Positions 55,955 to 64,000 are shown, numbered from the stretch's first letter. The stretch: DNA of 64,000 nucleotides from an uncultured virus (IMG/VR IMGVR_UViG_3300027754_000077) (IMGVR_UViG_3300027754_000077), one strand, 5' to 3'. Made by a program: numbers and translations. Notes: generated by a model from the letters alone, not told the origin.

Positions 55955-56962
55955 ATGAGTGAAATTGCATCTGAGAATAAATTAGTTGAAAAAACACAGT
56001 CTGAAAAAGCTATTTCAAAAAAAAATGAAGTGGATGATGAGCCAGAAAAAAGAATTATTTACTTAGCATCTGAATTACCTGGGGTCCCAGAAGTAATAGA
56101 TCTTATTAATTACGATACATCCCCACCTTACATTTCTATTTTTGAGGATAAAGAAGGATTTTTGGAAGCTGATGCTAGTCTTATTTATCAGGATGAGCGC
56201 AAAACACAACGCTTGCGTCCATTATCAGGCTCAAGCTTAGATTCGAAAATACCTAAGGAAAAGGATAAAACAACATTTCGAGAAAGATTATTACATAAAA
56301 AAAGTTCATTTCTGTCTAGAGCAATTTTTTTGATTAATCTTTTCTTTTTGAAAGAAAAATACTCAAATTTTTTCACGAATTTTAATTGGGGAATAGCCCC
56401 ACAGCTAATGCCAGAAGATGTTTTTCAAGCAAAAGTTTTGAACTTGACTAAGTTTAATCGCAATAAATTGATGAAAAAGCATGGCATCAGTGAAGCAGAA
56501 CTCAATTTTATTGCTTTTGCTAGGTTTCGTTATCCGTTTATAACAAGAGGTGAAGAAGAGTGGACAGAAATTGAAAAAAACGCCTTAGCATTCATTAAAA
56601 GAGGCTGGATATCAGAAGACATTAGGGGTAATTTCAAAATAAATGTTGGAAATGTTTACGAATTCAGAGATAGCATTATTTTTTCTGAGCAATTTAAAGA
56701 CATTATTTTCAAAAAAGTTTTTAAATCAAAGACTTTGCATAAGATTTTGAGGAAGATTGAAAGAAGTGCGAAAACTCAAGTTCACATTTATAATATCTCT
56801 CAAATTAGCAAACTTCCTTTCACACAATTCGGGAATAGCAATAGCTCTACACATTCTATTGTTGGTAAAAATGACTTAGAGGTGAGCAATTCAATCAAAA
56901 AAGAACCTATTTGTTTCACGAAAGATAGAATTTTAAAAGTAAAAAAAACTGAAACTTTTTAA
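55955..56962 (+). CDS. Hypothetical basic protein
   Basis: 335-aa ORF, no recognised motif. Confidence 0.55.
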   Translation: MSEIASENKLVEKTQSEKAISKKNEVDDEPEKRIIYLASELPGVPEVIDLINYDTSPPYISIFEDKEGFLEADASLIYQDERKTQRLRPLSGSSLDSKIPKEKDKTTFRERLLHKKSSFLSRAIFLINLFFLKEKYSNFFTNFNWGIAPQLMPEDVFQAKVLNLTKFNRNKLMKKHGISEAELNFIAFARFRYPFITRGEEEWTEIEKNALAFIKRGWISEDIRGNFKINVGNVYEFRDSIIFSEQFKDIIFKKVFKSKTLHKILRKIERSAKTQVHIYNISQISKLPFTQFGNSNSSTHSIVGKNDLEVSNSIKKEPICFTKDRILKVKKTETF

Positions 56963-57009
56963 AAGGTAATTACGTCTTATAATCATAATATTTAAAAAAG
57001 GAAACTAAA

Positions 57010-57063
57010 ATGACAAATTCGCTACGACATCTCTATCCAGCCTACGCACCCTCATCGGGGTAG
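57010..57063 (+). CDS. Putative attenuator leader peptide 1 (MTNSLRHLYPAYAPSSG)
   Basis: AAGGA RBS; 17 codons; upstream of a terminator and tRNA array 1; codons match the array tRNAs. Confidence 0.8.
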   Translation: MTNSLRHLYPAYAPSSG

Positions 57064-57090
57064 TGGCTAGTCGCGTATTTGACAAGCTAC

Positions 57091-57127
57091 AAACCCCCGA
57101 AGGACAAAAACTTTCGGGGGTTTTTTT
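57091..57127 (+). terminator. Attenuator terminator upstream of tRNA array 1
   Basis: AAACCCCCGAAGG-ACAAAAA-CTTTCGGGGG-T7. Confidence 0.9.
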
Positions 57128-57132
57128 ATTAT

Positions 57133-57145
57133 GAACATTGACAAT
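57133..57145 (+). promoter_or_regulatory. boxA-like element
   Basis: GAACATTGACAAT; a counterpart occupies the equivalent position in leader 2. Confidence 0.45.
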
Positions 57146-57243
57146 TAAATATCGTGGTGGTACCAAGGTTGAATTAAACTCTCTCTAAGTGGTGACCCGT
57201 AAGTGGATGACTAAGGACGCCCTTCATCCAGCCGAAAATTCAT

Positions 57244-57322
57244 CTACATGTTGAGGAGTTTGGCTTACCTCGCAATCCTTGGGAGATTGAGTACGCTGGT
57301 TCAAATCCAGCCATGTAGACCA
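57244..57322 (+). tRNA. tRNA-Pro(TGG)
   Basis: Acceptor CTACATG/CATGTAG, anticodon arm CAATC-CTTGGGA-GATTG, T arm, encoded CCA. Confidence 0.9.
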
Positions 57323-57327
57323 AGTTT

Positions 57328-57412
57328 GGGGATATCGCATAGCGGCAATTGCAGAAGACTGTAAATCTTCTATCGAAAGATTTCGTAGGTTCGAGTCCTA
57401 CTGTCCCCACCA
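57328..57412 (+). tRNA. tRNA-Tyr(GTA)
   Basis: GGGGATA/TGTCCCC, GAAGA-CTGTAAA-TCTTC, long variable arm, CCA. Confidence 0.92.
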
Positions 57413-57419
57413 AATTTTC

Positions 57420-57498
57420 GTGAAATGGGACTGCTGGGGGTGGTCGCCAAGCTTGCACCTTGGATATCAGGTGGGTTCGAATCCCACATTTTACACCA
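57420..57498 (+). tRNA. tRNA-Ala(TGC)
   Basis: GTGAAAT/ATTTTAC with G3:U70, CCAAG-CTTGCAC-CTTGG, CCA. Confidence 0.88.
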
Positions 57499-57502
57499 TA
57501 AT

Positions 57503-57585
57503 ACCGAAGTGGCGTAATGTAGCCGCGATAGTCTTAGAAACTATTGTCTTTTGACGTGTGGGTTCAAATCCCACCTTCGGTACCA
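57503..57585 (+). tRNA. tRNA-Leu(TAG)
   Basis: ACCGAAG/CTTCGGT, ATAGT-CTTAGAA-ACTAT, long variable arm, CCA. Confidence 0.92.
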
Positions 57586-57588
57586 CAT

Positions 57589-57665
57589 AAGTGAGTAGCT
57601 TAAATGGTAGAGCTCTTTGGTTGTGACCCAGAGGCGCGTGGGTTCAAATCCCACCTCACTGACCA
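57589..57665 (+). tRNA. tRNA-His(GTG), atypical acceptor end
   Basis: TTTGG-TTGTGAC-CCAGA with good D and T arms; 1:72 mismatch and A73; the 3' end overlaps the stop of an antisense ORF. Confidence 0.7.
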
Positions 57666-57979
57666 TTTTTTAAATCATAAAATATTCTTGGAACATATTT
57701 AAAGTTCATGAAATTCATTTGTTGTGTATTTTTTTCTTCATTAAATAAAGGCTCTTCAATAACTGCTGGTGGTTCAGGTATAGGTGGCTTTATAAGCGCA
57801 GGCTCGTTAGCAGGCGAATTTTGTTTTTGGTTATATTCTCTTCCTAAAATTTTACAGGTTTCACAAGTGTTTCCAGTAAATTGCCAGATTGTGTTCCCCC
57901 CTGGCATTTGTTCAATGTAGCATTTGCAACCTTCATGTACCGGAGGTAGAATTTTTTTTTGAGAATATCTATACCACAC
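57656..57979 (-). CDS. MWY-leader protein with MuF/gp7-like PPxHxxCxC motif
   Basis: MWYRYSQ start; LPPVHEGCKCYI; CETC. Confidence 0.6.
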   Translation of the reverse strand: MWYRYSQKKILPPVHEGCKCYIEQMPGGNTIWQFTGNTCETCKILGREYNQKQNSPANEPALIKPPIPEPPAVIEEPLFNEEKNTQQMNFMNFKYVPRIFYDLKNGQ

Positions 57980-58014
57980 AATCTGAATTTACTAATTTTT
58001 TATTGGATATCCTG

Positions 58015-59727
58015 CTAAGTTGAGGGTCTATACCACGGGAATAAGGTCCCCAACTGTTTTTTAATCTTATCTGATATATTTGGATTAATTTCAAGACTAT
58101 AAGGATTTATGCGACCAAATTCTGCAAATTCTTTGATGAATCTTTCAGACAATTTTTGGTTACGTGAAATCACAGTCCAATCCACACGGTCTGCAAAATC
58201 TTTGATCAAATCCTCAGACAATTTTTGGTGCCATGAAATTTCCTTCCAATTCACACGGTCTGCAAATTCTATGATGAAATCCTCAGACAATTTTTGTTTA
58301 GCTGAAATACTCCACCAATCCACACGGTTTTTAAATTCTCTGATGAATTCTTCAGATAGTGGTTGTTTACGTGAAATTTCATTCCAATCCACGCGGTCTG
58401 CAAATGTTCTAATTACTTTTTCAGGTATTGGATAATTCTTCAAGACTTTATCCATGTCTAAACTGTCTTCGAAATCTAAAATAAAATCTCCAGATAGTGT
58501 TTGGTATTGTGAAATTATGTCCCAATCCAAACTGTCTGCAAATTCACGAATGAATTCTTCAGACAATAGTGGGCGGCTTGAAATCAAATCCCAAGCTACA
58601 CGATCTGCACTTAATCCCTTACTAAACAAGTATCTCAGCATTTCTTCTGGTGCGTTAACATAATAAAAATTATAATTATTTATACCTTTTTCATTTATGA
58701 TTTCATCAATTAATTCAAAATCTCCAGATCTCAAAGCATAGTCTTTTACACGCCAATCATCATTCCCAAGATGTTTTTTAATCTCTTCTATTGCAATGTT
58801 TCTTCTTCTGTTATAAGTGGCTCTGTATTGATTATTGCCAAAAAGCATAGCTTTTTGGCTTGGAGGGATACTAATTCCTGTATTAAGATATTGTTCAATC
58901 AAAAAATCAGCTGTATTATTTGATGTCACAGATTGTAAATTAATAATAGACTCTAATTGTTGATCAGTTAAAAGATGCCCCCTGCCTATATATTTAGATT
59001 TATATTCTGCTGGCAACTCTTCAAACCAATTTGGTGTAACATTTCTTTTTCCTAATAATTCATTTTCTTTTCTTTCTTCTTCTGTTACGGGTTTATTTAC
59101 AAATATTGATGTATCTACACCATTTTGTCTAAGATAATCAAAATAAGTTTCATAATCATTGCCAAACTCAGCTATTGTCCCAGTTTGATTATTTTTGTCA
59201 GTAAGTTTTACGATACCTTTTGCTTGCATATCAACCATCACTCTTGATAATGGATCTTCTGGTGGTCTTGTCCCATCACTTACATAGTAAAAAGTGGATT
59301 GGTAATTATCCCTGTAGGATTGAAACATTGTATTTCCAGGTTGTGATATACACCATGATGTTCCTGCACCATATCTAATTGTATCGTTAACACTATTACA
59401 AGCAAATACTTGTATCTCTCCAGGTGTAAAATTAATTTTTTCTTTAGTTAATTCTTTTTGTTCTTTTTTTTGTTTTAAAAAAATCAATTCAGTATAAAGA
59501 GCGTCCACTGCTTCGGTAAATTCAAGAAAATCTGTGTAAAATTTATTATCGAACATCACTCCATCTTTTCTTAATTCTATAATTGGAAGTTTATTTGCTT
59601 TATCAAGCTCATTTAGTCTCTCACTAAGTTGGGAAGTATTGTGCCCTTGATTACTGAAATAATCTGCAATCTTCCTTATTATATGTTCTTTGCCAGCTAT
59701 AATTATTTTTGCAAATCTATACCACAC
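58015..59727 (-). CDS. MWY-leader protein with YGAGTSWCI domain and C-terminal 22-aa Trp repeats (paralog A)
   Basis: Repeats of the form DWxxISxxQxLSEDFIxEFADRV; N-terminal half highly similar to 59798-61543. Confidence 0.8.
   Translation of the reverse strand: MWYRFAKIIIAGKEHIIRKIADYFSNQGHNTSQLSERLNELDKANKLPIIELRKDGVMFDNKFYTDFLEFTEAVDALYTELIFLKQKKEQKELTKEKINFTPGEIQVFACNSVNDTIRYGAGTSWCISQPGNTMFQSYRDNYQSTFYYVSDGTRPPEDPLSRVMVDMQAKGIVKLTDKNNQTGTIAEFGNDYETYFDYLRQNGVDTSIFVNKPVTEEERKENELLGKRNVTPNWFEELPAEYKSKYIGRGHLLTDQQLESIINLQSVTSNNTADFLIEQYLNTGISIPPSQKAMLFGNNQYRATYNRRRNIAIEEIKKHLGNDDWRVKDYALRSGDFELIDEIINEKGINNYNFYYVNAPEEMLRYLFSKGLSADRVAWDLISSRPLLSEEFIREFADSLDWDIISQYQTLSGDFILDFEDSLDMDKVLKNYPIPEKVIRTFADRVDWNEISRKQPLSEEFIREFKNRVDWWSISAKQKLSEDFIIEFADRVNWKEISWHQKLSEDLIKDFADRVDWTVISRNQKLSERFIKEFAEFGRINPYSLEINPNISDKIKKQLGTLFPWYRPST
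58110..58600 (-). repeat. Degenerate 66-bp tandem coding repeats
   Basis: Recurrent ccaatccacacggtctgcaaa..tttgatgaaatcctcagacaa units; boundaries approximate. Confidence 0.8.
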
Positions 59728-59797
59728 AATCTGAATTTCCTAAATTTGTATCGGATATCCTGCTGCTTTCAGATTGTGTTTGGTTTGGTCTGAGATG

Positions 59798-61543
59798 TTA
59801 GGGTTTTTTAAATTTTAGCTTGTAATAAACATTGAGTTTGGTTTGTCTTGAGATTTTAGGGTTTTGTGAAATCCCATCCCAACTCAAACGTTCTGCAAAT
59901 TCTTTGATGAAATCCTCCGATAGTGTTTGATTGAATGAAATCCCGCGCCAATCCACACTATCTGCAAATTCACGAATGAATTCTTCAGATAGTGTTTGTT
60001 TTTTTGAAATATTATACCAATTCACCTTATCTTTGAATTTTCTGATAAAATCTTCGGATAGTGTTTGGTAATGTGAAATATTACCCCAACCCAAACGACC
60101 TGCAAAATCTTTGATGAAATCCTCAGATAGTTTTTGACGCCGTGGAATTTCATCCCAAATCACACGGTCTACAAAATTTCTAATTATTTTTTCAGGTATT
60201 GGATAATTCCTCAAGACTTTATCCATGTCTAAACGTTTAGCAAATTCTAAAATAAAATCTCCAGATAGATTTTGGTAAGAGGAAATATAATTCCAATACA
60301 CATCATCTTTGTATCTTCTGATAAAATCTTCAGATAGTATTTGCATTCGTGAAATCTCAAACCAACCAAGACGATCTTGAAATTCTTCAATAAAATTTTC
60401 AGATAGTGAATTGTCTGAAACCCACTCCCAAGCTACATTATCTGCACTTAATCCCTTGCTGAACAAGTATCTCAGCATTTCTTCGGGTGCTTTTATATCA
60501 TAAAAATTTCTTATGTCTTTTTCATTTATGATTTCATCAATTAATTCAAAATCTCCATGTTCTAAAGCATATCTTGTTAGACTATACTTATCATTCCCAA
60601 ACTCTTCTTTAATCTCTTTTATTGCAATTGCTCTTCTTCTGTCATAAGTGTCTTTGTATTGTTTTTTGCCAAAAAGCATATCTTTTTGACTTTGAGGAAT
60701 ACTAACTCCTGTATTAAGATATTGTTCAATCAAATATCCAGATATTGTTGGTAAATTAATAATGAATTTTAATTGTTCATCCGTTAAAAGATGTCCTCTT
60801 CCTATATATTTAAGTTGTAATTTTAATGGTAACTTTTCAAACCAATTTGGTGTAACATTTCTGTATTCTAATAATTCATTTTCATTTATTTCTTCTTCTG
60901 TTAGAGTTTTATTTACAAATTGTGATGTATCTACACCGTTTTTTCTAAGATAATCAAAATAAGCTTCATGATCTTCGTCAAACTCAGCTATTGTCCCAGT
61001 GCGATTATTTTTGTCCGTAAGTTTTACGATACCATTTGCTTGCATATCAACCATCACTCTTGATAATGGATCTTCTGGTGGTCTGGTGCCATCATTTACA
61101 TAGTAAAAAGTAGATTGGTATTTATTCTTATAGGATTGAAATTCTGTATTTCCAGGCTGTGATATACACCAACTTGTTCCTGCGCCATATCTAATTGCGT
61201 CATTGACATCATTGCAGGCAACTACTTGTATCTTTCCTGGTACAAAATCAATTTTTTCTTTAGTTAATTCTTTTTGTTCTTTTATTTGTTTGGAGAAAAC
61301 TAATATAGTATGAAGAGCATCTACAGCTTCGGTAAATTTAAGAAAATCTGTGTAAATGTTATTATCAAACATCACTCCATCTTTTCTTAATTCTATAATT
61401 GGAAGTTTATTTGCTTTATCAAGCTCATTTAGTCTCTCACTAAGTTGGGAAGGATCCTGCCCTTGATCGCTAAAATATTCTGCAATCTTCCTTATTATAT
61501 GTTCTTTGCCAGCTATAATTATTTTTGCAAATTTATACCACAC
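59798..61543 (-). CDS. MWY-leader protein with YGAGTSWCI domain and C-terminal 22-aa Trp repeats (paralog B)
   Basis: Tandem duplicate of 58015-59727 with a different repeat set. Confidence 0.8.
   Translation of the reverse strand: MWYKFAKIIIAGKEHIIRKIAEYFSDQGQDPSQLSERLNELDKANKLPIIELRKDGVMFDNNIYTDFLKFTEAVDALHTILVFSKQIKEQKELTKEKIDFVPGKIQVVACNDVNDAIRYGAGTSWCISQPGNTEFQSYKNKYQSTFYYVNDGTRPPEDPLSRVMVDMQANGIVKLTDKNNRTGTIAEFDEDHEAYFDYLRKNGVDTSQFVNKTLTEEEINENELLEYRNVTPNWFEKLPLKLQLKYIGRGHLLTDEQLKFIINLPTISGYLIEQYLNTGVSIPQSQKDMLFGKKQYKDTYDRRRAIAIKEIKEEFGNDKYSLTRYALEHGDFELIDEIINEKDIRNFYDIKAPEEMLRYLFSKGLSADNVAWEWVSDNSLSENFIEEFQDRLGWFEISRMQILSEDFIRRYKDDVYWNYISSYQNLSGDFILEFAKRLDMDKVLRNYPIPEKIIRNFVDRVIWDEIPRRQKLSEDFIKDFAGRLGWGNISHYQTLSEDFIRKFKDKVNWYNISKKQTLSEEFIREFADSVDWRGISFNQTLSEDFIKEFAERLSWDGISQNPKISRQTKLNVYYKLKFKKP
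59860..60435 (-). repeat. Degenerate 66-bp tandem coding repeats
   Basis: Same repeat family as in paralog A; boundaries approximate. Confidence 0.8.
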
Positions 61544-61632
61544 AATCTGAATTTCAAGAAAAAAATAAAAAAACCTAATTTTTACAGAACAAATAGGAGA
61601 TTGTGTCGTATATATATAATAAGGAAATAATT

Positions 61633-61698
61633 ATGAAATTAAATTTGCAGGGCAGTATTGGATGTTTTATGTGGTCAACCCAAGGGGGTAGTGGCTAA
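61633..61698 (+). CDS. Putative attenuator leader peptide 2 (MKLNLQGSIGCFMWSTQGGSG)
   Basis: AAGGA RBS; 21 codons; upstream of a terminator and tRNA array 2; codons match the array tRNAs. Confidence 0.8.
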   Translation: MKLNLQGSIGCFMWSTQGGSG

Positions 61699-61725
61699 AA
61701 TCCTGCTGTAAGCAAAATTTTCACC

Positions 61726-61764
61726 AAAATCCCTGAAGACCAAAAAAACTTCAGGGATTTTTTT
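61726..61764 (+). terminator. Attenuator terminator upstream of tRNA array 2
   Basis: AAAATCCCTGAAG-ACCAAAAAAA-CTTCAGGGA-T7. Confidence 0.9.
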
Positions 61765-61766
61765 AT

Positions 61767-61779
61767 GTACTTTGACAAT
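61767..61779 (+). promoter_or_regulatory. boxA-like element
   Basis: GTACTTTGACAAT, similar to rrn boxA GCTCTTTAACAAT. Confidence 0.5.
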
Positions 61780-61789
61780 AAAATAATGA

Positions 61790-61865
61790 GCGATATTGAT
61801 GTTAATGGTTAGCATACCTGGCTTCCAACCAGATTGTGTCAGTTCAAGTCTGACATATCGCTCCA
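61790..61865 (+). tRNA. tRNA-Gly(TCC)
   Basis: GCGATAT/ATATCGC, CTGG-CTTCCAA-CCAG, U73, CCA. Confidence 0.92.
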
Positions 61866-61869
61866 ATAT

Positions 61870-61945
61870 GGATTTCAGGTGTAGCTGGTGTGCACGAAGC
61901 GCTGAAGACGCTTAGGATAGAGTTCAATTCTCTGGGAATCCACCA
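61870..61945 (+). tRNA. tRNA-Phe(GAA)
   Basis: GGATTTC/GGAATCC, AAGCG-CTGAAGA-CGCTT, CCA. Confidence 0.9.
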
Positions 61946-61955
61946 AATTTTTTAA

Positions 61956-62042
61956 GGAAGGTAATGCTGAATGGTTTTGGCGAATGTTTGCTAAACATTT
62001 CGGACTGAAAGGTCTCTGGTTCAATTCCAGTGCCTTCCTCCA
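61956..62042 (+). tRNA. tRNA-Ser(GCT)
   Basis: GGAAGGT/GCCTTCC, AATGT-TTGCTAA-ACATT, long variable arm, CCA. Confidence 0.88.
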
Positions 62043-62106
62043 TATACGGGGAGTGACCAGTTGGCTCTGTGCAGGAGTGGTTTTATTAAGTTTTGAATAT
62101 TCACAT

Positions 62107-62613
62107 ATGAGAAAACCAAACACTCAATGCTCAATCTGCTCGAATGAAATTTATCGCAGACCATTTCAAATAAAAGCACAAATAAAATTTTATTGTTCTA
62201 GTTGTAATCCATCTAAAAAAACAAATAAACTTGCAGAAAAGAAATGCCCAGTGTGTCAAAATTTTTTCAAACCAGATAGTTCAAAATCTACATTTTGTAG
62301 TCGTAGTTGTTCAAATAAAAGCCGTTGTGGAATTCATTACCGCAAAGATGGAAATGTATGGAATAATAAATCTAAACTCAGATTGTCAATACTTTTGACT
62401 GAGTTTGCTATTACATCTTGTATGGTTGAGGGATGCAACTATAATATCACTTATGATATTCATAGACACATACCTGGAAAAGAAGGTGGTGAATATAAAA
62501 TAGGAAATATGTTTGCTATCTGCCCAAACCATCATGCAGAGGTTTCTCGCGGTATAATTATTTTGGAAAAAGTAAGCGATAGTAAATTAAAAATAAAGGA
62601 AGTGCTGTCATAG
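62107..62613 (+). CDS. HNH endonuclease with N-terminal Zn-finger motifs, inside tRNA array 2
   Basis: CSIC, CPVC..FCSRSC; DIHRHIPGKEGGEYKIGNMFAICPNHHAEV. Start at ATG 62107 because the upstream in-frame part overlaps a tRNA. Confidence 0.85.
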   Translation: MRKPNTQCSICSNEIYRRPFQIKAQIKFYCSSCNPSKKTNKLAEKKCPVCQNFFKPDSSKSTFCSRSCSNKSRCGIHYRKDGNVWNNKSKLRLSILLTEFAITSCMVEGCNYNITYDIHRHIPGKEGGEYKIGNMFAICPNHHAEVSRGIIILEKVSDSKLKIKEVLS

Positions 62614-62684
62614 GTGTGATAAACCGTCTTGAAAACGGCTGGGCTGATAAGGTCTTGAGAGTTCGAATCTCTCCGCTTCCGCCA
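62598..62684 (+). tRNA. tRNA-Ser(TGA); 5' 16 nt overlap the HNH coding end
   Basis: GGAAGTG/CGCTTCC, CCGT-CTTGAAA-ACGG, long variable arm, G73, CCA. Confidence 0.85.
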
Positions 62685-62691
62685 AGTTTAT

Positions 62692-62765
62692 GTTGTCTCT
62701 AGCTCAGTTGGTAGAGCGTCCCACTGCAGGGGAAGGCGAAGGTTCAATTCCTTCGGGCAACACCA
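62692..62765 (+). tRNA. tRNA-like gene with irregular anticodon arm (undetermined, possible pseudogene)
   Basis: Canonical D arm GCTCAGTTGGTAGAGC, T arm and CCA; TCCC-ACTGCAG-GGGA lacks U33 in a 7-nt loop. Confidence 0.55.
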
Positions 62766-62771
62766 TTTTAC

Positions 62772-62858
62772 TGAGGAATAGTGTAATTGGTAACACGCTA
62801 GGTTTTGACCCTAGAGACATATTTGCTTGTCCACGTTCGAATCGTGGTTCCTCAGCCA
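62772..62858 (+). tRNA. tRNA-Gln(TTG) with long variable region
   Basis: TGAGGAA/TTCCTCA, CTAGG-TTTTGAC-CCTAG, G73, CCA. Confidence 0.85.
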
Positions 62859-62859
62859 T

Positions 62860-62934
62860 ATCCGAGTAGCTCAATGGCAGAGCATAATCTATATAAGATT
62901 GAGGTTTTTGGTTCAAATCCAAATTCGGATACCA
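62860..62934 (+). tRNA. tRNA-Ile(TAT), atypical (A33)
   Basis: ATCCGAG/TTCGGAT, TAATC-TATATAA-GATTG, CCA. Confidence 0.65.
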
Positions 62935-62939
62935 ATTTC

Positions 62940-63013
62940 GGCAAATTAGCTTAATGGTAGAGCGCAGATTTCATACATCTAAGACAAAAGTTCGATTCTT
63001 TTATTTGCCCCCA
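62940..63013 (+). tRNA. tRNA-Met(CAT), elongator type
   Basis: GGCAAAT/ATTTGCC, AGAT-TTCATAC-ATCT, no initiator features; Ile2 identity not excluded. Confidence 0.8.
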
Positions 63014-63016
63014 AAC

Positions 63017-63090
63017 GCACGATTAGCCAAGAGGCAAGGCGAGGGTCTGCAAAATCCTGATCACTGGTTCAAGTCCAGTATCGTGCTCCA
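63017..63090 (+). tRNA. tRNA-Cys(GCA)
   Basis: GCACGAT/ATCGTGC, AGGGT-CTGCAAA-ATCCT, U73, CCA. Confidence 0.92.
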
Positions 63091-63093
63091 TAT

Positions 63094-63167
63094 ACCAGAG
63101 AGAGTAGGTTGTTCCAATAGGTCTTCGAAACCTTTTTGCCTGGGTTCAAATCCCAGCTCTGGTGCCA
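63094..63167 (+). tRNA. tRNA-Arg(TCG), weak D arm
   Basis: ACCAGAG/CTCTGGT, AGGT-CTTCGAA-ACCT, T arm, CCA. Confidence 0.78.
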
Positions 63168-63274
63168 TTTTTATTTGATGGGTATTTGATAAAAACGTTT
63201 TTTTTCTGTTTTTTAGATTCAAAAATTCTCTTTTTTTATTTGATGGTCATTTGATTACCTTCACACAAAACAAA

Positions 63275-63583
63275 TTATGAGACCAGCTCAATTGTGTGTG
63301 GTGCATTTTCTGAAATGTTAAATAGCCCATTTCCCAATTCATATTTCTTACCAAGGTCATCAATAAATGTTTGAAATTCCATTTCAAGTTTTTCTATCAT
63401 TTCTTGATTAGCTCTAAATTCTTCTTGCAAAGAAGCCATTTGTTTTTCTACATTTCTCAACATGTCAAATATGTCAGAGCGCTTGCCTTTCAAGTTTAAT
63501 ACCCCAGAACGAAGCTGTGCATAATTATTAAATTCTTCTTTAGTTAAAGCTTTTTCAGATTGTGTAGATGAGTTAAATTTCAT
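63275..63583 (-). CDS. Coiled-coil hypothetical protein
   Basis: 102-aa helical ORF. Confidence 0.55.
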   Translation of the reverse strand: MKFNSSTQSEKALTKEEFNNYAQLRSGVLNLKGKRSDIFDMLRNVEKQMASLQEEFRANQEMIEKLEMEFQTFIDDLGKKYELGNGLFNISENAPHTIELVS

Positions 63584-63592
63584 AAATTTATT

Positions 63593-64000
63593 TTACAATT
63601 TTTTTGCTCTAACCAGTTCAAATTTTGCCCCTGTTTTTTCGCAAACATTTCTTAAGAAAATCCATGCATTACCAGCTTCATCCACTTCTGCCACAGGTGT
63701 GGAGTAACCCTTTAAGCCATTCATCCAAATTACATTATCACCTAACTTGGTTAACGCAAAGTTTTTGGGCATTAATTTATTGATAAAAGCTCTTGCTGGA
63801 ATAATGGTTCTTGAATTTTCTACTCTAGTTTGTGACCAAATAAAAACATTTGATTCAAAAGTAATTTCAAATACAGGATTTGTCCATGAATCCACTCCAT
63901 CACCATTATAGATTTGGTAAAATTTATTAACTTCTTTAATGAATGTTGGTTTATCCACTAATTTGCCTGGACATGTTTTGTTCGTCAATGGGTCATCTCT
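63593..64000 (-). CDS. Hypothetical protein (start probably beyond window edge)
   Basis: ORF reported from 63988; the frame is open to the window end. Confidence 0.5.
   Translation of the reverse strand, partial: RDDPLTNKTCPGKLVDKPTFIKEVNKFYQIYNGDGVDSWTNPVFEITFESNVFIWSQTRVENSRTIIPARAFINKLMPKNFALTKLGDNVIWMNGLKGYSTPVAEVDEAGNAWIFLRNVCEKTGAKFELVRAKKL

What the first reader, a model, noticed from the sequence alone, without database searches (positions are those of the whole stretch)
56990..63167. Phage tRNA arrays apparently controlled by codon-matched leader-peptide attenuators
Seen: both arrays have the same upstream layout: AAGGA RBS, short ORF, G-rich segment at the stop codon, strong intrinsic terminator, boxA-like element, then tRNAs. 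In leader 1, codons 5-14 read L R H L Y P A Y A P; 9 of these 10 belong to the five amino acids of array 1 (Pro, Tyr, Ala, Leu, His), and all five are present, including the exact cognates CTA, CCA, TAC and GCA. In leader 2, codons 6-21 read Q G S I G C F M W S T Q G G S G; 14 of these 16 belong to array 2 amino acids, and both Ser isoacceptors (AGT, TCA) are covered. The match is reciprocal: leader 2 has no Pro, Tyr, Ala or His, and leader 1 has no Phe, Gln, Ile or Cys. Established: trp/his/thr-type attenuation reads charged-tRNA supply through leader codons, and host anticodon nucleases (e.g. PrrC) deplete tRNAs during infection. Inference: ribosome stalling on any listed codon allows read-through into the tRNAs that would relieve the stall, giving a multiplexed tRNA-depletion sensor with feedback. 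I do not recall this being described for phage tRNA arrays, but I could not search the literature.
Basis: partly seen in the sequence, partly recalled or inferred. Interest (0 to 1): 0.97.

Follow-up and report, generated by a model that had tools for sequence, protein, structure and literature searches.

The report
Leader-peptide attenuators before phage tRNA arrays
Each of the two tRNA gene clusters of this uncultured lake phage sits behind a tiny conserved reading frame wired into a terminator/anti-terminator RNA switch, so the phage probably transcribes its tRNAs only when ribosomes read that test frame slowly.

Summary
Both arrays (57244-57665; 61790-63167) are headed by a Shine-Dalgarno site, a short ORF (17 and 21 codons), a G-rich motif at the stop codon, a strong intrinsic terminator and a boxA-like motif. 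Homologues in four phage lineages keep both ORFs: every in-ORF indel is 3 nt, and half of the variable L1 codons vary only synonymously. Folding gives a four-region trp-type attenuator. Region 1 lies inside the ORF. Region 2, the shared motif, holds or abuts the stop codon. Region 3 is the terminator's 5' arm. No promoter fits between terminator and first tRNA.

Codon matching is real but weaker than claimed. P is about 5e-4 to 7e-3 against proteome composition, but only 0.03-0.06 in the window when the ORF's own nucleotides are shuffled. Leader/array covariation among relatives is mixed. There is no expression proof.

My reading is a ribosome-mediated attenuator gating the tRNA arrays (about 0.55), with codon-specific sensing plausible but unproven. 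Five literature searches found no description of this for tRNA genes. This scan has noted the same idea before on other DNA; those are unchecked AI notes and I do not count them as evidence. I class it as a new variant of a known kind.

The parts
56978..56983 (+). TATAAT, -10-like element upstream of leader 1 (inferred promoter)
   Evidence: Sequence read. Aligned -10-like elements stand upstream of the homologous leaders. Not tested.
56998..57002 (+). AAGGA Shine-Dalgarno site, 7 nt before the ATG of sORF1
   Evidence: Conserved as AGGA in 5 of 5 L1 copies.
57010..57063 (+). Leader ORF 1, 17 codons plus TAG (MTNSLRHLYPAYAPSSG*)
   Evidence: Conserved in 5 sequences from 4 lineages without indels. 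In the real frame 5 codons vary only synonymously and 5 non-synonymously; the other frames give 2:9 and 1:10.
57039..57052 (+). Region 1 of attenuator 1 (inside the ORF, codons 10-15); pairs with region 2
   Evidence: MFE and centroid structures. The 1:2 hairpin is -13.1 kcal/mol.
57057..57068 (+). Region 2 (GGGGUAGUGGCU), contains the stop codon TAG; pairs with region 1 or region 3
57085..57097 (+). Region 3 (AGCUAC..ACCCC); its 3' part is the start of the terminator's 5' arm
   Evidence: Antiterminator -20.3 kcal/mol, z -3.45, 1 of 200 shuffles as good. Predicted in 5 of 5 L1 copies at -18.2 to -20.4.
57094..57127 (+). Intrinsic terminator 1: 10-bp G+C-rich stem, 7-nt loop, T7
57132..57151 (+). 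boxA-like motif TGAACATTGACAATTAAATA
   Evidence: Compared with the E. coli rrsH leader read. In G001 the motif occurs only at the two array heads.
57146..57243 (+). 98-nt conserved spacer with two predicted hairpins, function unknown; absent in G001 and SXGQ
   Evidence: Run X7 has a contig that skips 57151-57250.
57244..57665 (+). tRNA array 1: Pro(tgg) Tyr(gta) Ala(tgc) Leu(tag) His(gtg)
61607..61620 (+). CGTATATATATAAT, -10-like promoter motif upstream of leader 2
   Evidence: The same YGTATAWW motif stands 5-8 nt before the ATG of several other genes of the window. Not tested.
61621..61625 (+). AAGGA Shine-Dalgarno site, 7 nt before the ATG of sORF2
61633..61698 (+). Leader ORF 2, 21 codons plus TAA (MKLNLQGSIGCFMWSTQGGSG*)
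   Evidence: Eight homologous sequences. In-ORF indels are all 3 nt, while indels after the stop are 1-3 nt.
61672..61681 (+). Region 1 of attenuator 2 (UGGUCAACCC, codons 14-17)
   Evidence: The 1:2 helix is 100% paired in 8 of 8 sequences. Hairpin energy -10.3 kcal/mol.
61685..61697 (+). Region 2 (GGGGUAGUGGCUA), ends in the stop codon TAA
61724..61733 (+). Region 3 (CCA..AUCCC), overlaps the terminator's 5' arm
   Evidence: Antiterminator -15.6 kcal/mol. The 2:3 helix has 95% of cells paired but is invariant.
61730..61764 (+). Intrinsic terminator 2: 9-bp stem, 10-nt loop, T7
   Evidence: Two compensatory pairs in G003.
61766..61785 (+). boxA-like motif TGTACTTTGACAATAAAATA, 4 nt before tRNA-Gly
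61790..63167 (+). tRNA array 2: Gly Phe Ser(gct), then an HNH endonuclease ORF (about 62108-62613), then Ser(tga) Ala Gln Ile(tat) Met Cys Arg(tcg)

Best explanation
Each tRNA array is gated by a ribosome-mediated (trp/his-type) transcription attenuator.

Proposed sequence of events:
1. Transcription starts at a -10-like element upstream of the leader. (Inferred.)
2. The leader ORF is translated. (Inferred from the SD site, frame conservation and synonymous variation.)
3. If the ribosome runs quickly to the stop codon, it covers region 2, the shared motif GGGGUAGUGGCU. The stop codon lies in or against this motif. The downstream terminator hairpin then forms and transcription ends before the tRNAs.
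4. If no ribosome is present, region 2 is held by region 1 inside the ORF and the terminator also forms.
5. If the ribosome lingers on the codons just before or within region 1, region 1 is masked. These codons are about 9-13 in leader 1 (Y P A Y A) and about 10-13 in leader 2 (G C F M). Region 2 then pairs with the terminator's 5' arm. RNA polymerase reads through, crosses a boxA-like element and transcribes the array.

The codons at those positions belong to amino acids served by the array's own tRNAs. The loop would therefore be a negative feedback on decoding capacity, probably specific to each array.

Shown: the anatomy, its conservation and the alternative pairings. Inferred: every functional step.
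For: 1. Same layout twice in the window, and again in relatives. L1 and L2 homologues occur in G001 (347 kb), G003 (166 kb), SXGQ and several short metagenome contigs. That gives 13 distinct leader sequences.
2. Coding constraint.
- L1 codon columns in the real frame: 8 invariant, 5 synonymous-only, 5 non-synonymous. The other frames give 6/2/9 and 6/1/10.
- Variable sites by codon position: 4/4/8.
- The three in-ORF gaps of L2 are all 3 nt. Gaps after the stop codon are 1-3 nt.
3. The shared 13-nt motif is read in different frames in L1, L2 and the G002 leader. A stop codon still lies in or right after it each time. This points to selection on where translation ends, not on the peptide tail.
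4. Alternative pairings.
- Full leaders fold with z -4.4 and -4.2, 0 of 200 shuffles as good.
- The 2:3 antiterminator is predicted in 13 of 13 leaders: -18.2 to -20.4 kcal/mol in L1, -10.1 to -15.6 in L2.
- Terminators are -12.7 to -18.7 kcal/mol.
- The 1:2 helix and the terminator are 100% paired in 8 of 8 L2 sequences, with 2 compensatory terminator pairs.
5. No room for another promoter. In G001 (both arrays) and in all L2 copies the first tRNA starts 10-13 nt after the boxA-like motif. No promoter-like site lies between terminator and tRNA.
6. Cis codon bias.
- L1: 9 of 16 residues, covering 5 of 5 array amino acids, P 5.5e-4.
- G001 L2: 16 of 21 residues, 9 of 10 amino acids, P 3e-4.
- Trans pairings: P 0.5-0.99.
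- The real frame beats both other frames in 6 of 6 leaders.
- The unpaired segment just upstream of region 1 reads H-(L/S/P)-Y in L1 and C-F-(M/I) in L2. It shows tgt/tgc synonymous and Met/Ile in-set changes.
7. My detector finds a terminator before 6 of 6 array heads in this family. It finds none before 27 of 27 tRNA blocks in four unrelated phage loci.
8. Weak hint: a 191-nt contig from a metatranscriptome run bridges 57090-57280, from the terminator into tRNA-Pro.
Against: - No direct evidence that the leaders are translated or that read-through is regulated. The RNA-library contig may be carried-over DNA, and contigs show neither strand nor ends.
- Codon matching shrinks under a composition-matched null. 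P is 0.035 (window L1), 0.035-0.06 (window L2) and 0.006-0.05 (G001 L2). The leaders' C-rich or G/U-rich composition could come from RNA pairing alone.
- Leader/array covariation is mixed.
  - For: G001 has a Val codon and tRNA-Val while the window has neither. G003 has two CTC codons and an extra tRNA-Leu(gag). G003 lacks both Ile codon and tRNA-Ile.
  - Against: G003 has tRNA-Val but no Val codon. The window keeps Trp in the leader although the homologous tRNA now reads Arg (tcg). SXGQ lost about five tRNAs to an HNH insertion with no change in the leader. The window's Ile tRNA (tat) does not read ATT.
- The decisive 1:2 and 2:3 helices are nearly invariant, so covariation neither supports nor rejects them.
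- In L1 the antiterminator is the thermodynamic optimum even without a ribosome. Termination in the untranslated state therefore depends on folding kinetics.
- In G002 a good TTGACA-17-TAAGAT promoter lies between the terminator and the first tRNA. Read-through is not needed there.
- Only four or five closely related lineages are available (92-93% mean column identity).
- The host is unknown.
Confidence: 0.55

Rival explanations
1. A real ribosome-dependent attenuator that senses general translation capacity or transcription-translation coupling, not particular codons. The amino-acid match to the arrays would be a by-product of the base composition that the RNA arms impose.
For: - Nucleotide and dinucleotide shuffles of the ORFs already give mean in-set counts of 6.0-6.2 of 16 (L1) and 9.9-10.7 of 20 (window L2). 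The observed matches then reach only P 0.03-0.06.
- Several in-set codons (P A Y A P; W S) lie inside region 1 and are fixed by pairing with region 2.
- Arrays change a lot while leaders hardly change.
Against: - The real frame beats both other frames in 6 of 6 leaders.
- The mostly unpaired codons H-x-Y and C-F-M/I are conserved at the amino-acid level and are in-set.
- The two leaders are reciprocally specific.
Confidence: 0.2
2. There is no ribosome sensing. The sORF plus terminator is a small independent transcription unit or an insulator. The tRNAs are made by constitutive leaky read-through, or by factor-dependent antitermination (Nus factors at the boxA-like site, or a phage protein).
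For: - The boxA-like motif follows each terminator. It matches the E. coli rrsH-leader element at 11 of 13 core positions and 15 of 20 overall in G001/G003 L2.
- In G002 a promoter follows the terminator.
- There is no expression data.
Against: - The boxA-like site lies downstream of the terminator, so it cannot help polymerase pass that terminator.
- The stop codon sits in the antiterminator strand in three diverged leader types.
- An anti-antiterminator lies inside the ORF.
- The frame is conserved.
Confidence: 0.15
3. The tRNAs have their own promoter. TTGACA in the 'boxA-like' motif would be a -35 box, so the terminator merely ends upstream transcripts.
For: - TTGACA equals the sigma-70 -35 consensus.
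- In G002 other TTGACA sites have good -10 boxes 17 nt away.
- The motif also occurs in 11 of 15 IMG/VR loci that have no tRNA nearby.
Against: - In G001 (both arrays) and in all L2 copies the tRNA begins 10-13 nt after the motif. A -10 box and the start site would then fall inside the tRNA.
- No qualifying promoter was reported there.
- The would-be -10 positions are not conserved among copies.
Confidence: 0.05
4. An RNA-only switch that binds tRNA directly, T-box-like. The ORF would be incidental.
For: Region 2 contains UGG, which pairs with a CCA in region 3. This is loosely reminiscent of NCCA recognition. The comparison rests on recall of the T-box mechanism.
Against: - No T-box hit, nor any other Rfam hit at E<=1 apart from a sub-threshold His_leader match.
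- The SD site, the 3-nt indels and the synonymous variation argue for translation.
Confidence: 0.03

Closest known systems
Leader-peptide transcription attenuators of amino-acid operons (trp, his, leu, thr, ilvGMEDA, pheA; the multivalent thr/ilv type)
   Same: - An SD site and a short leader ORF.
- Four regions with mutually exclusive 1:2, 2:3 and 3:4 pairings.
- The stop codon placed so that a terminating ribosome masks region 2.
- An intrinsic terminator before the regulated genes.
- Several different regulatory amino acids in one leader, as in thr and ilv.
   Different: - The regulated genes are tRNA genes of a phage, not biosynthetic enzymes.
- There are no runs of one codon. The leader holds one or two codons for each of 5-10 amino acids.
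- A boxA-like element follows the terminator.
- There is no sequence homology. Rfam His_leader scores 26.8 bits against a gathering score of 49.
pheST-type attenuation and T-box riboswitches (control of translation-apparatus genes by tRNA charging); named from recall, not from a call
   Same: The logic is the same: expression of a component of the decoding machinery is tied to the supply of the matching charged tRNA through a terminator/antiterminator choice.
   Different: - pheST regulates a synthetase with Phe codons only.
- T-boxes bind tRNA directly and need no ribosome.
- No T-box match was found here.
rrn-operon antitermination element boxA (NusB/NusE site)
   Same: - The motif after each terminator resembles the E. 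coli rrsH-leader element TGCTCTTTAACAATTTATCA read. In G001/G003 L2 the match is 11 of 13 core positions and 15 of 20 overall.
- It lies on the nascent RNA just before a block of untranslated, structured RNA genes.
   Different: - Nus-factor binding is untested.
- The host and its own boxA are unknown.
- L1 copies match less well (9 of 13).
- The motif contains TTGACA and also occurs away from tRNAs in other phages.
Known roles of phage tRNAs (codon-usage compensation; replacing host tRNAs that are degraded or cleaved during infection); recalled from the literature, no paper read here
   Same: This would supply a rationale for making phage tRNAs on demand.
   Different: I know of no published account of how phage tRNA arrays are regulated by such a sensor. 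Five searches found none.

Membership tests
Ribosome-mediated leader-peptide attenuator (trp/his type) | Short leader ORF with ribosome-binding site upstream of the regulated genes | tested here: met
   AAGGA lies 7 nt before the ATG in both leaders. The ORFs are 17 and 21 codons. The frame is conserved in relatives.
Ribosome-mediated leader-peptide attenuator (trp/his type) | Intrinsic terminator between leader ORF and regulated genes | tested here: met
   Hairpins of -12.7 to -18.7 kcal/mol followed by T5-T9 in 13 of 13 leaders. Two compensatory pairs.
Ribosome-mediated leader-peptide attenuator (trp/his type) | Antiterminator that uses the terminator's 5' arm (2:3), and an anti-antiterminator inside the ORF (1:2) | tested here: met
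   Predicted in all copies. L1 2:3 has z -3.45. Pairing is kept in 95-100% of cells, but the helices are invariant, so there is no covariation proof.
Ribosome-mediated leader-peptide attenuator (trp/his type) | Stop codon placed so that a terminating ribosome masks region 2 | tested here: met
   The stop codon lies inside the motif in L1 and in G002, and at its 3' end in L2. The frame relative to the motif differs each time.
Ribosome-mediated leader-peptide attenuator (trp/his type) | Leader enriched in codons of the amino acid(s) tied to the regulated genes | tested here: inconclusive
   P 5.5e-4 to 6.7e-3 against proteome composition. P 0.03-0.06 in the window against composition-matched shuffles. 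Covariation is mixed.
Ribosome-mediated leader-peptide attenuator (trp/his type) | Read-through rises when the cognate charged tRNA is scarce | not testable with these tools
   This needs reporter, Term-seq or Ribo-seq experiments. The only data are one contig from an RNA library.
Rfam His_leader (RF00514) | Score at or above the gathering threshold | tested here: not met
   26.8 bits against 49, E 0.37, at 57027-57129. It is not listed at gathering threshold.
T-box riboswitch | Match to the T-box covariance model | tested here: not met
   No T-box match at E<=1 in 56500-64000.
rrn-type boxA antitermination site | Sequence match to boxA | tested here: inconclusive
   9-11 of 13 core positions match the E. 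coli rrsH element read. The host's own boxA could not be found.
rrn-type boxA antitermination site | Binding of NusB/NusE and termination-resistant elongation | not testable with these tools
   Biochemical property.

The most novel reading that the evidence does not exclude
Each phage tRNA array carries its own multiplexed decoding sensor. The leader peptide samples the codons that its array serves. The phage would therefore switch on a given tRNA set only when those codons are read slowly. That could happen because the host's tRNA pool does not suit the phage, or because host defences (anticodon nucleases) or host shut-off have depleted those tRNAs. Production would switch off again once the phage tRNAs have restored decoding. 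This would be the first attenuator known to regulate tRNA genes, and a built-in counter-defence circuit.
Probability: 0.3. Interest if true: 0.9.

Novelty: new variant of a known kind. Interest (0 to 1): 0.8.

Why it matters
How phages regulate their tRNA genes is essentially unknown. tRNA genes are not known targets of leader-peptide attenuation.

If the reading holds, it would show three things:
- Phages measure decoding speed directly and make tRNAs on demand.
- The logic of amino-acid operon attenuation has been reused for the decoding machinery itself.
- Many amino acids can be multiplexed in one leader.

It would also give a compact, portable sensor of tRNA supply. The reading is directly testable with reporter fusions and coupled transcription-translation assays. 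The elements are short (about 150 nt) and the predictions for start-codon, stop-shift and codon-swap mutants are sharp.

Tried and rejected
- **Cultured relatives.** blastn of both leader regions against 50,697 phage records found only tRNA-level matches and no leader homologue.
- **Whole genome.** None is held for the window.
- **Protein-based search for relatives.** A search with the 102-aa neighbour found none. A tRNA-Pro pattern found only G001.
- **Motif AGATTGTGTSGTATAAT as a general phage promoter.** It gave 5 matches, all local to 57968-61614 plus one weak hit, so it is not a genome-wide signal.
- **Host identification and host rrn boxA.**
  - A degenerate boxA pattern in five bacterial genomes hit coding regions only, with no rRNA nearby.
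- **Literature search for the boxA variant.** It returned irrelevant papers.
- **Earlier-findings look-ups.** Look-ups by sequence and by place gave nothing relevant.
- **RNA evidence.** Only Logan contigs were available. Uncovered parts, depth and contig ends of run X24 say nothing about expression.
- **G002 leader as an independent codon-match case.** I rejected it. Its array covers about 15 amino acids and the leader matches 11 of 17, which is no enrichment.
- **TTGACA as a -35 box for the arrays.** Rejected for G001 and for all L2 copies on spacing.

Full report
**What the window is.**
The window is part of a large, AT-rich (about 32% G+C) phage genome. It encodes ribonucleotide reductase, clamp loader, terminase and portal. 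No whole genome is held for it and it has no cultured relative at the DNA level. Near-identical sequence occurs in freshwater and lake metagenome runs.

**The observation.**
- ARAGORN finds 14 tRNAs. Rfam adds a Ser(gct) tRNA at 61956/7-62038.
- Array 1 (57244-57665) is Pro, Tyr, Ala, Leu, His.
- Array 2 (61790-63167) is Gly, Phe, Ser, then an HNH endonuclease ORF, then Ser, Ala, Gln, Ile(tat), Met, Cys, Arg(tcg).
- Upstream of each array lie, in order: AAGGA 7 nt before an ATG; a short ORF; an exact shared 13-mer; a strong terminator; and a boxA-like motif.
- The short ORFs are 57010-57063 (MTNSLRHLYPAYAPSSG*) and 61633-61698 (MKLNLQGSIGCFMWSTQGGSG*).
- The shared 13-mer is GGGGTAGTGGCTA. It has two exact copies, and 0.24 matches are expected even with 2 mismatches allowed.
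- The terminators are 57094-57127 and 61730-61764.
- The boxA-like motif is TG..C.TTGACAAT.AAATA.

**Relatives.**
- Pattern scans of IMG/VR and of metagenome contigs were mostly chance hits. In one search only 1 of 91 stretches was homologous. In one search, 13 of the 18 entries that passed the T-run filter were homologous.
- They nevertheless yielded homologous leaders in four lineages: the window's own, G001 (347 kb), SXGQ and G003 (166 kb). That is 5 L1 and 8 L2 sequences.
- A distant third leader type occurs in G002.
- In G001 the two arrays are adjacent. In G001 and SXGQ the first tRNA of array 1 starts about 10 nt after the boxA-like motif.
- The window and G003 carry a conserved 98-nt spacer there instead.

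**Are the sORFs coding?**
- L1 has no indel in 5 sequences. In the real frame, 5 variable codons change only synonymously (Leu5, Pro10, Ala11, Ala13, Ser15) and 5 change non-synonymously. The other two frames give 2:9 and 1:10. Variable sites fall 4/4/8 by codon position.
- In L2 the three in-ORF gaps are each 3 nt. Gaps after the stop codon are 1-3 nt.
- Synonymous changes in L2 (acc/act, gtg/gta, tgt/tgc, caa/cag) and a TAA/TAG stop swap also occur.
- This is moderate evidence for translation. The sample is small and the sequences are closely related.

**The RNA switch.**
- The 13-mer is read in different frames in L1 and L2, and its relative in G002 in a third frame. A stop codon lies in it or right after it each time. 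It is therefore conserved as RNA.
- Folding shows three things:
  - With the terminator present, the motif (region 2) pairs with a segment inside the ORF (region 1). In L1 this is 57039-57052, codons 10-15. In L2 it is 61672-61681, codons 14-17.
  - If region 1 is withheld and the terminator's 3' arm is not yet made, region 2 pairs with region 3, which overlaps the terminator's 5' arm. The energies are -18.2 to -20.4 kcal/mol in 5 of 5 L1 copies and -10.1 to -15.6 in 8 of 8 L2 copies.
  - The terminators are -12.7 to -18.7 kcal/mol.
- Whole leaders fold far better than shuffles: z -4.4 and -4.2, 0 of 200. The L1 antiterminator has z -3.45.
- On the L2 alignment the 1:2 helix and the terminator are paired in 100% of cells, with two compensatory terminator pairs. 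The 2:3 helix is paired in 95% of cells but is invariant. Covariation therefore proves only the terminator.
- The G002 leader has an even clearer antiterminator. Its region 2 copies the terminator's 3' arm: -23.3 kcal/mol, z -5.6. The stop codon lies inside it.
- This is the anatomy of a trp-type attenuator.

**Where the tRNA transcripts must start.**
- No promoter-like site was reported between either terminator and its array.
- In G001 and in every L2 copy there is no room for one.
- The TTGACA inside the boxA-like motif cannot be a -35 box for the first tRNA in those copies.
- -10-like elements lie upstream of the sORFs. The L2 element matches a YGTATAWW motif that stands 5-8 nt before several other genes of the window.
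- A metatranscriptome run holds a 191-nt contig spanning 57090-57280, from the terminator to tRNA-Pro. Contigs from an RNA library cannot exclude DNA and show no ends, so I count it only as a weak hint.

**Codon matching.**
- Against the phage's own amino-acid frequencies, the cis matches are unlikely:
  - L1: 9 of 16 residues and 5 of 5 amino acids, P 5.5e-4.
  - Window L2: 14 of 20 and 7 of 9, P 6.7e-3.
  - G001 L2: 16 of 21 and 9 of 10, P 3e-4.
- Trans pairings are not unlikely: P 0.5-0.99.
- Leader 1 is C-rich and leader 2 is G/U-rich, so I shuffled each ORF's own nucleotides. This raises the expected match and leaves P 0.035 (window L1), 0.035-0.06 (window L2), 0.006-0.05 (G001 L2) and 0.0003-0.006 (G003 L2).
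- Still, the real frame beats both alternative frames in 6 of 6 leaders.
- The unmatched residues cluster at codons 2-5, where stalling could not unmask region 2.
- The largely unpaired codons just before region 1 are conserved and in-set. In L1 they read H-(L/S/P)-Y. In L2 they read C-F-(M/I), with a tgt/tgc synonymous change and Met/Ile swaps.
- With an assumed footprint of about 28-30 nt, ribosomes paused with codons about 9-13 (L1) or about 10-13 (L2) in the A site would cover region 1 and leave region 2 free. This is inference.

**Covariation between leaders and arrays is mixed**.
- Concordant:
  - G001 has a Val codon and tRNA-Val; the window has neither.
  - G003's L1 has two CTC codons and its array has an extra tRNA-Leu(gag).
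  - G003 lacks both an Ile codon and tRNA-Ile.
- Discordant:
  - G003 has tRNA-Val but no Val codon.
  - The window's leader keeps Trp, although the homologous tRNA scaffold now carries anticodon tcg.
  - SXGQ lost several tRNAs to an HNH insertion without any change in the leader.
  - The window's Ile tRNA (tat, with A33) does not read ATT.
- The arrays are very plastic, with homing endonucleases and anticodon switches. The sample is too small to decide.

**The boxA-like motif.**
- The E. coli rrsH leader, read from NC_000913.3, carries TGCTCTTTAACAATTTATCA. That this element is boxA rests on established knowledge.
- The G001/G003 L2 motif TGTTCTTTGACAATTAAATA matches 11 of 13 core positions and 15 of 20 overall. 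The window's L2 matches 10 of 13 and its L1 9 of 13.
- In G001 the motif occurs only at the two array heads in 347 kb.
- The motif also occurs in other phages away from tRNAs: 11 of 15 loci.
- I could not find the host or its own boxA.
- I read it as a possible Nus-factor loading site that protects the untranslated array from premature termination. This is a resemblance, not a tested membership.

**Specificity of the feature.**
- My simple detector finds a terminator before 6 of 6 array heads in this family.
- It finds one before 1 of 13 tRNA blocks in G002.
- It finds none before 27 of 27 blocks in four unrelated phage tRNA loci.
- So this is not a generic property of phage tRNA clusters.

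**Prior knowledge.**
- Five full-text searches found no description of leader-peptide attenuation of tRNA genes or phage tRNA arrays. I saw search listings and abstracts only and read no paper.
- This scan's notebook holds the same idea for other genomes: 75 notes in at least 69 genomes. These are unchecked AI notes on other DNA. I did not test them and do not count them as evidence.

**Verdict.**
The anatomy and its conservation make a ribosome-mediated attenuator gating the tRNA arrays the best explanation (about 0.55). Whether it senses the arrays' own codons is plausible but rests on modest statistics (about 0.3). The link to host anticodon nucleases is untested speculation.

Noticed in passing
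window 62040-62613: An HNH endonuclease ORF (PHROG 1271) sits inside array 2, between Ser(gct) and Ser(tga). A tRNA-like 5' fragment precedes it at about 62046-62090. G001 lacks the insertion, and a contig of run X6 skips 62069-62678. SXGQ has a different HNH insertion that removed several tRNAs.
   Followed up: partly
window 63094-63167, 62692-62765, 62860-62934 against L264 and L180: Homologous tRNA scaffolds carry different anticodons in related phages: Arg(tcg) in the window against Trp(cca) in G001; Ala(tgc/cgc) against Val(tac) in SXGQ; Ile(tat, with A33) against Ile(gat). These look like anticodon switches within one tRNA body.
   Followed up: partly
window 58015-59727 and 59798-61543 (minus strand): Two paralogous repeat proteins of 570 and 581 aa (PHROG 3532, repeated LSE.FI..F motif) lie between the arrays. 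They are absent in G001, and contigs of runs X7 and X9 skip them (57969 joined to 61534).
   Followed up: partly
window 57146-57243; L263 4960-5057 (minus): A conserved 98-nt spacer lies between the boxA-like motif and tRNA-Pro. It has two predicted hairpins and about 90% identity between the window and G003. It is absent in G001 and SXGQ and has no Rfam match.
   Followed up: partly
L262 6022-6451 (G002): A GOLLD RNA (Rfam RF02032, 177 bits) lies inside the tRNA array of the distantly related phage contig G002. None is found in the window.
   Followed up: no
L263 (G003) minus strand, array 2; L179: G003's tRNA-Gly carries a 17-nt insertion after the anticodon. A Gln-like tRNA there has a longer insertion and ARAGORN misses it. 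In L179 the first tRNA is reduced to an acceptor plus T-arm minihelix.
   Followed up: no
window 5691, 8957, 30870, 38438, 55941 (+); 38432, 34622 (-): A YGTATAWW motif (TATAAAT-like) stands 5-8 nt before the start codon of several genes. This suggests -10-only promoters that give leaderless or nearly leaderless mRNAs. Only 21 of 55 ORF starts have an SD-like site.
   Followed up: partly
run X7, joint 57498 to 62700 (table 5c): A relative's contig joins tRNA-Ala of array 1 to array 2 through 36 other letters. These contain another boxA-like GTGTTCTTTGACA, so the motif may recur inside arrays.
   Followed up: no
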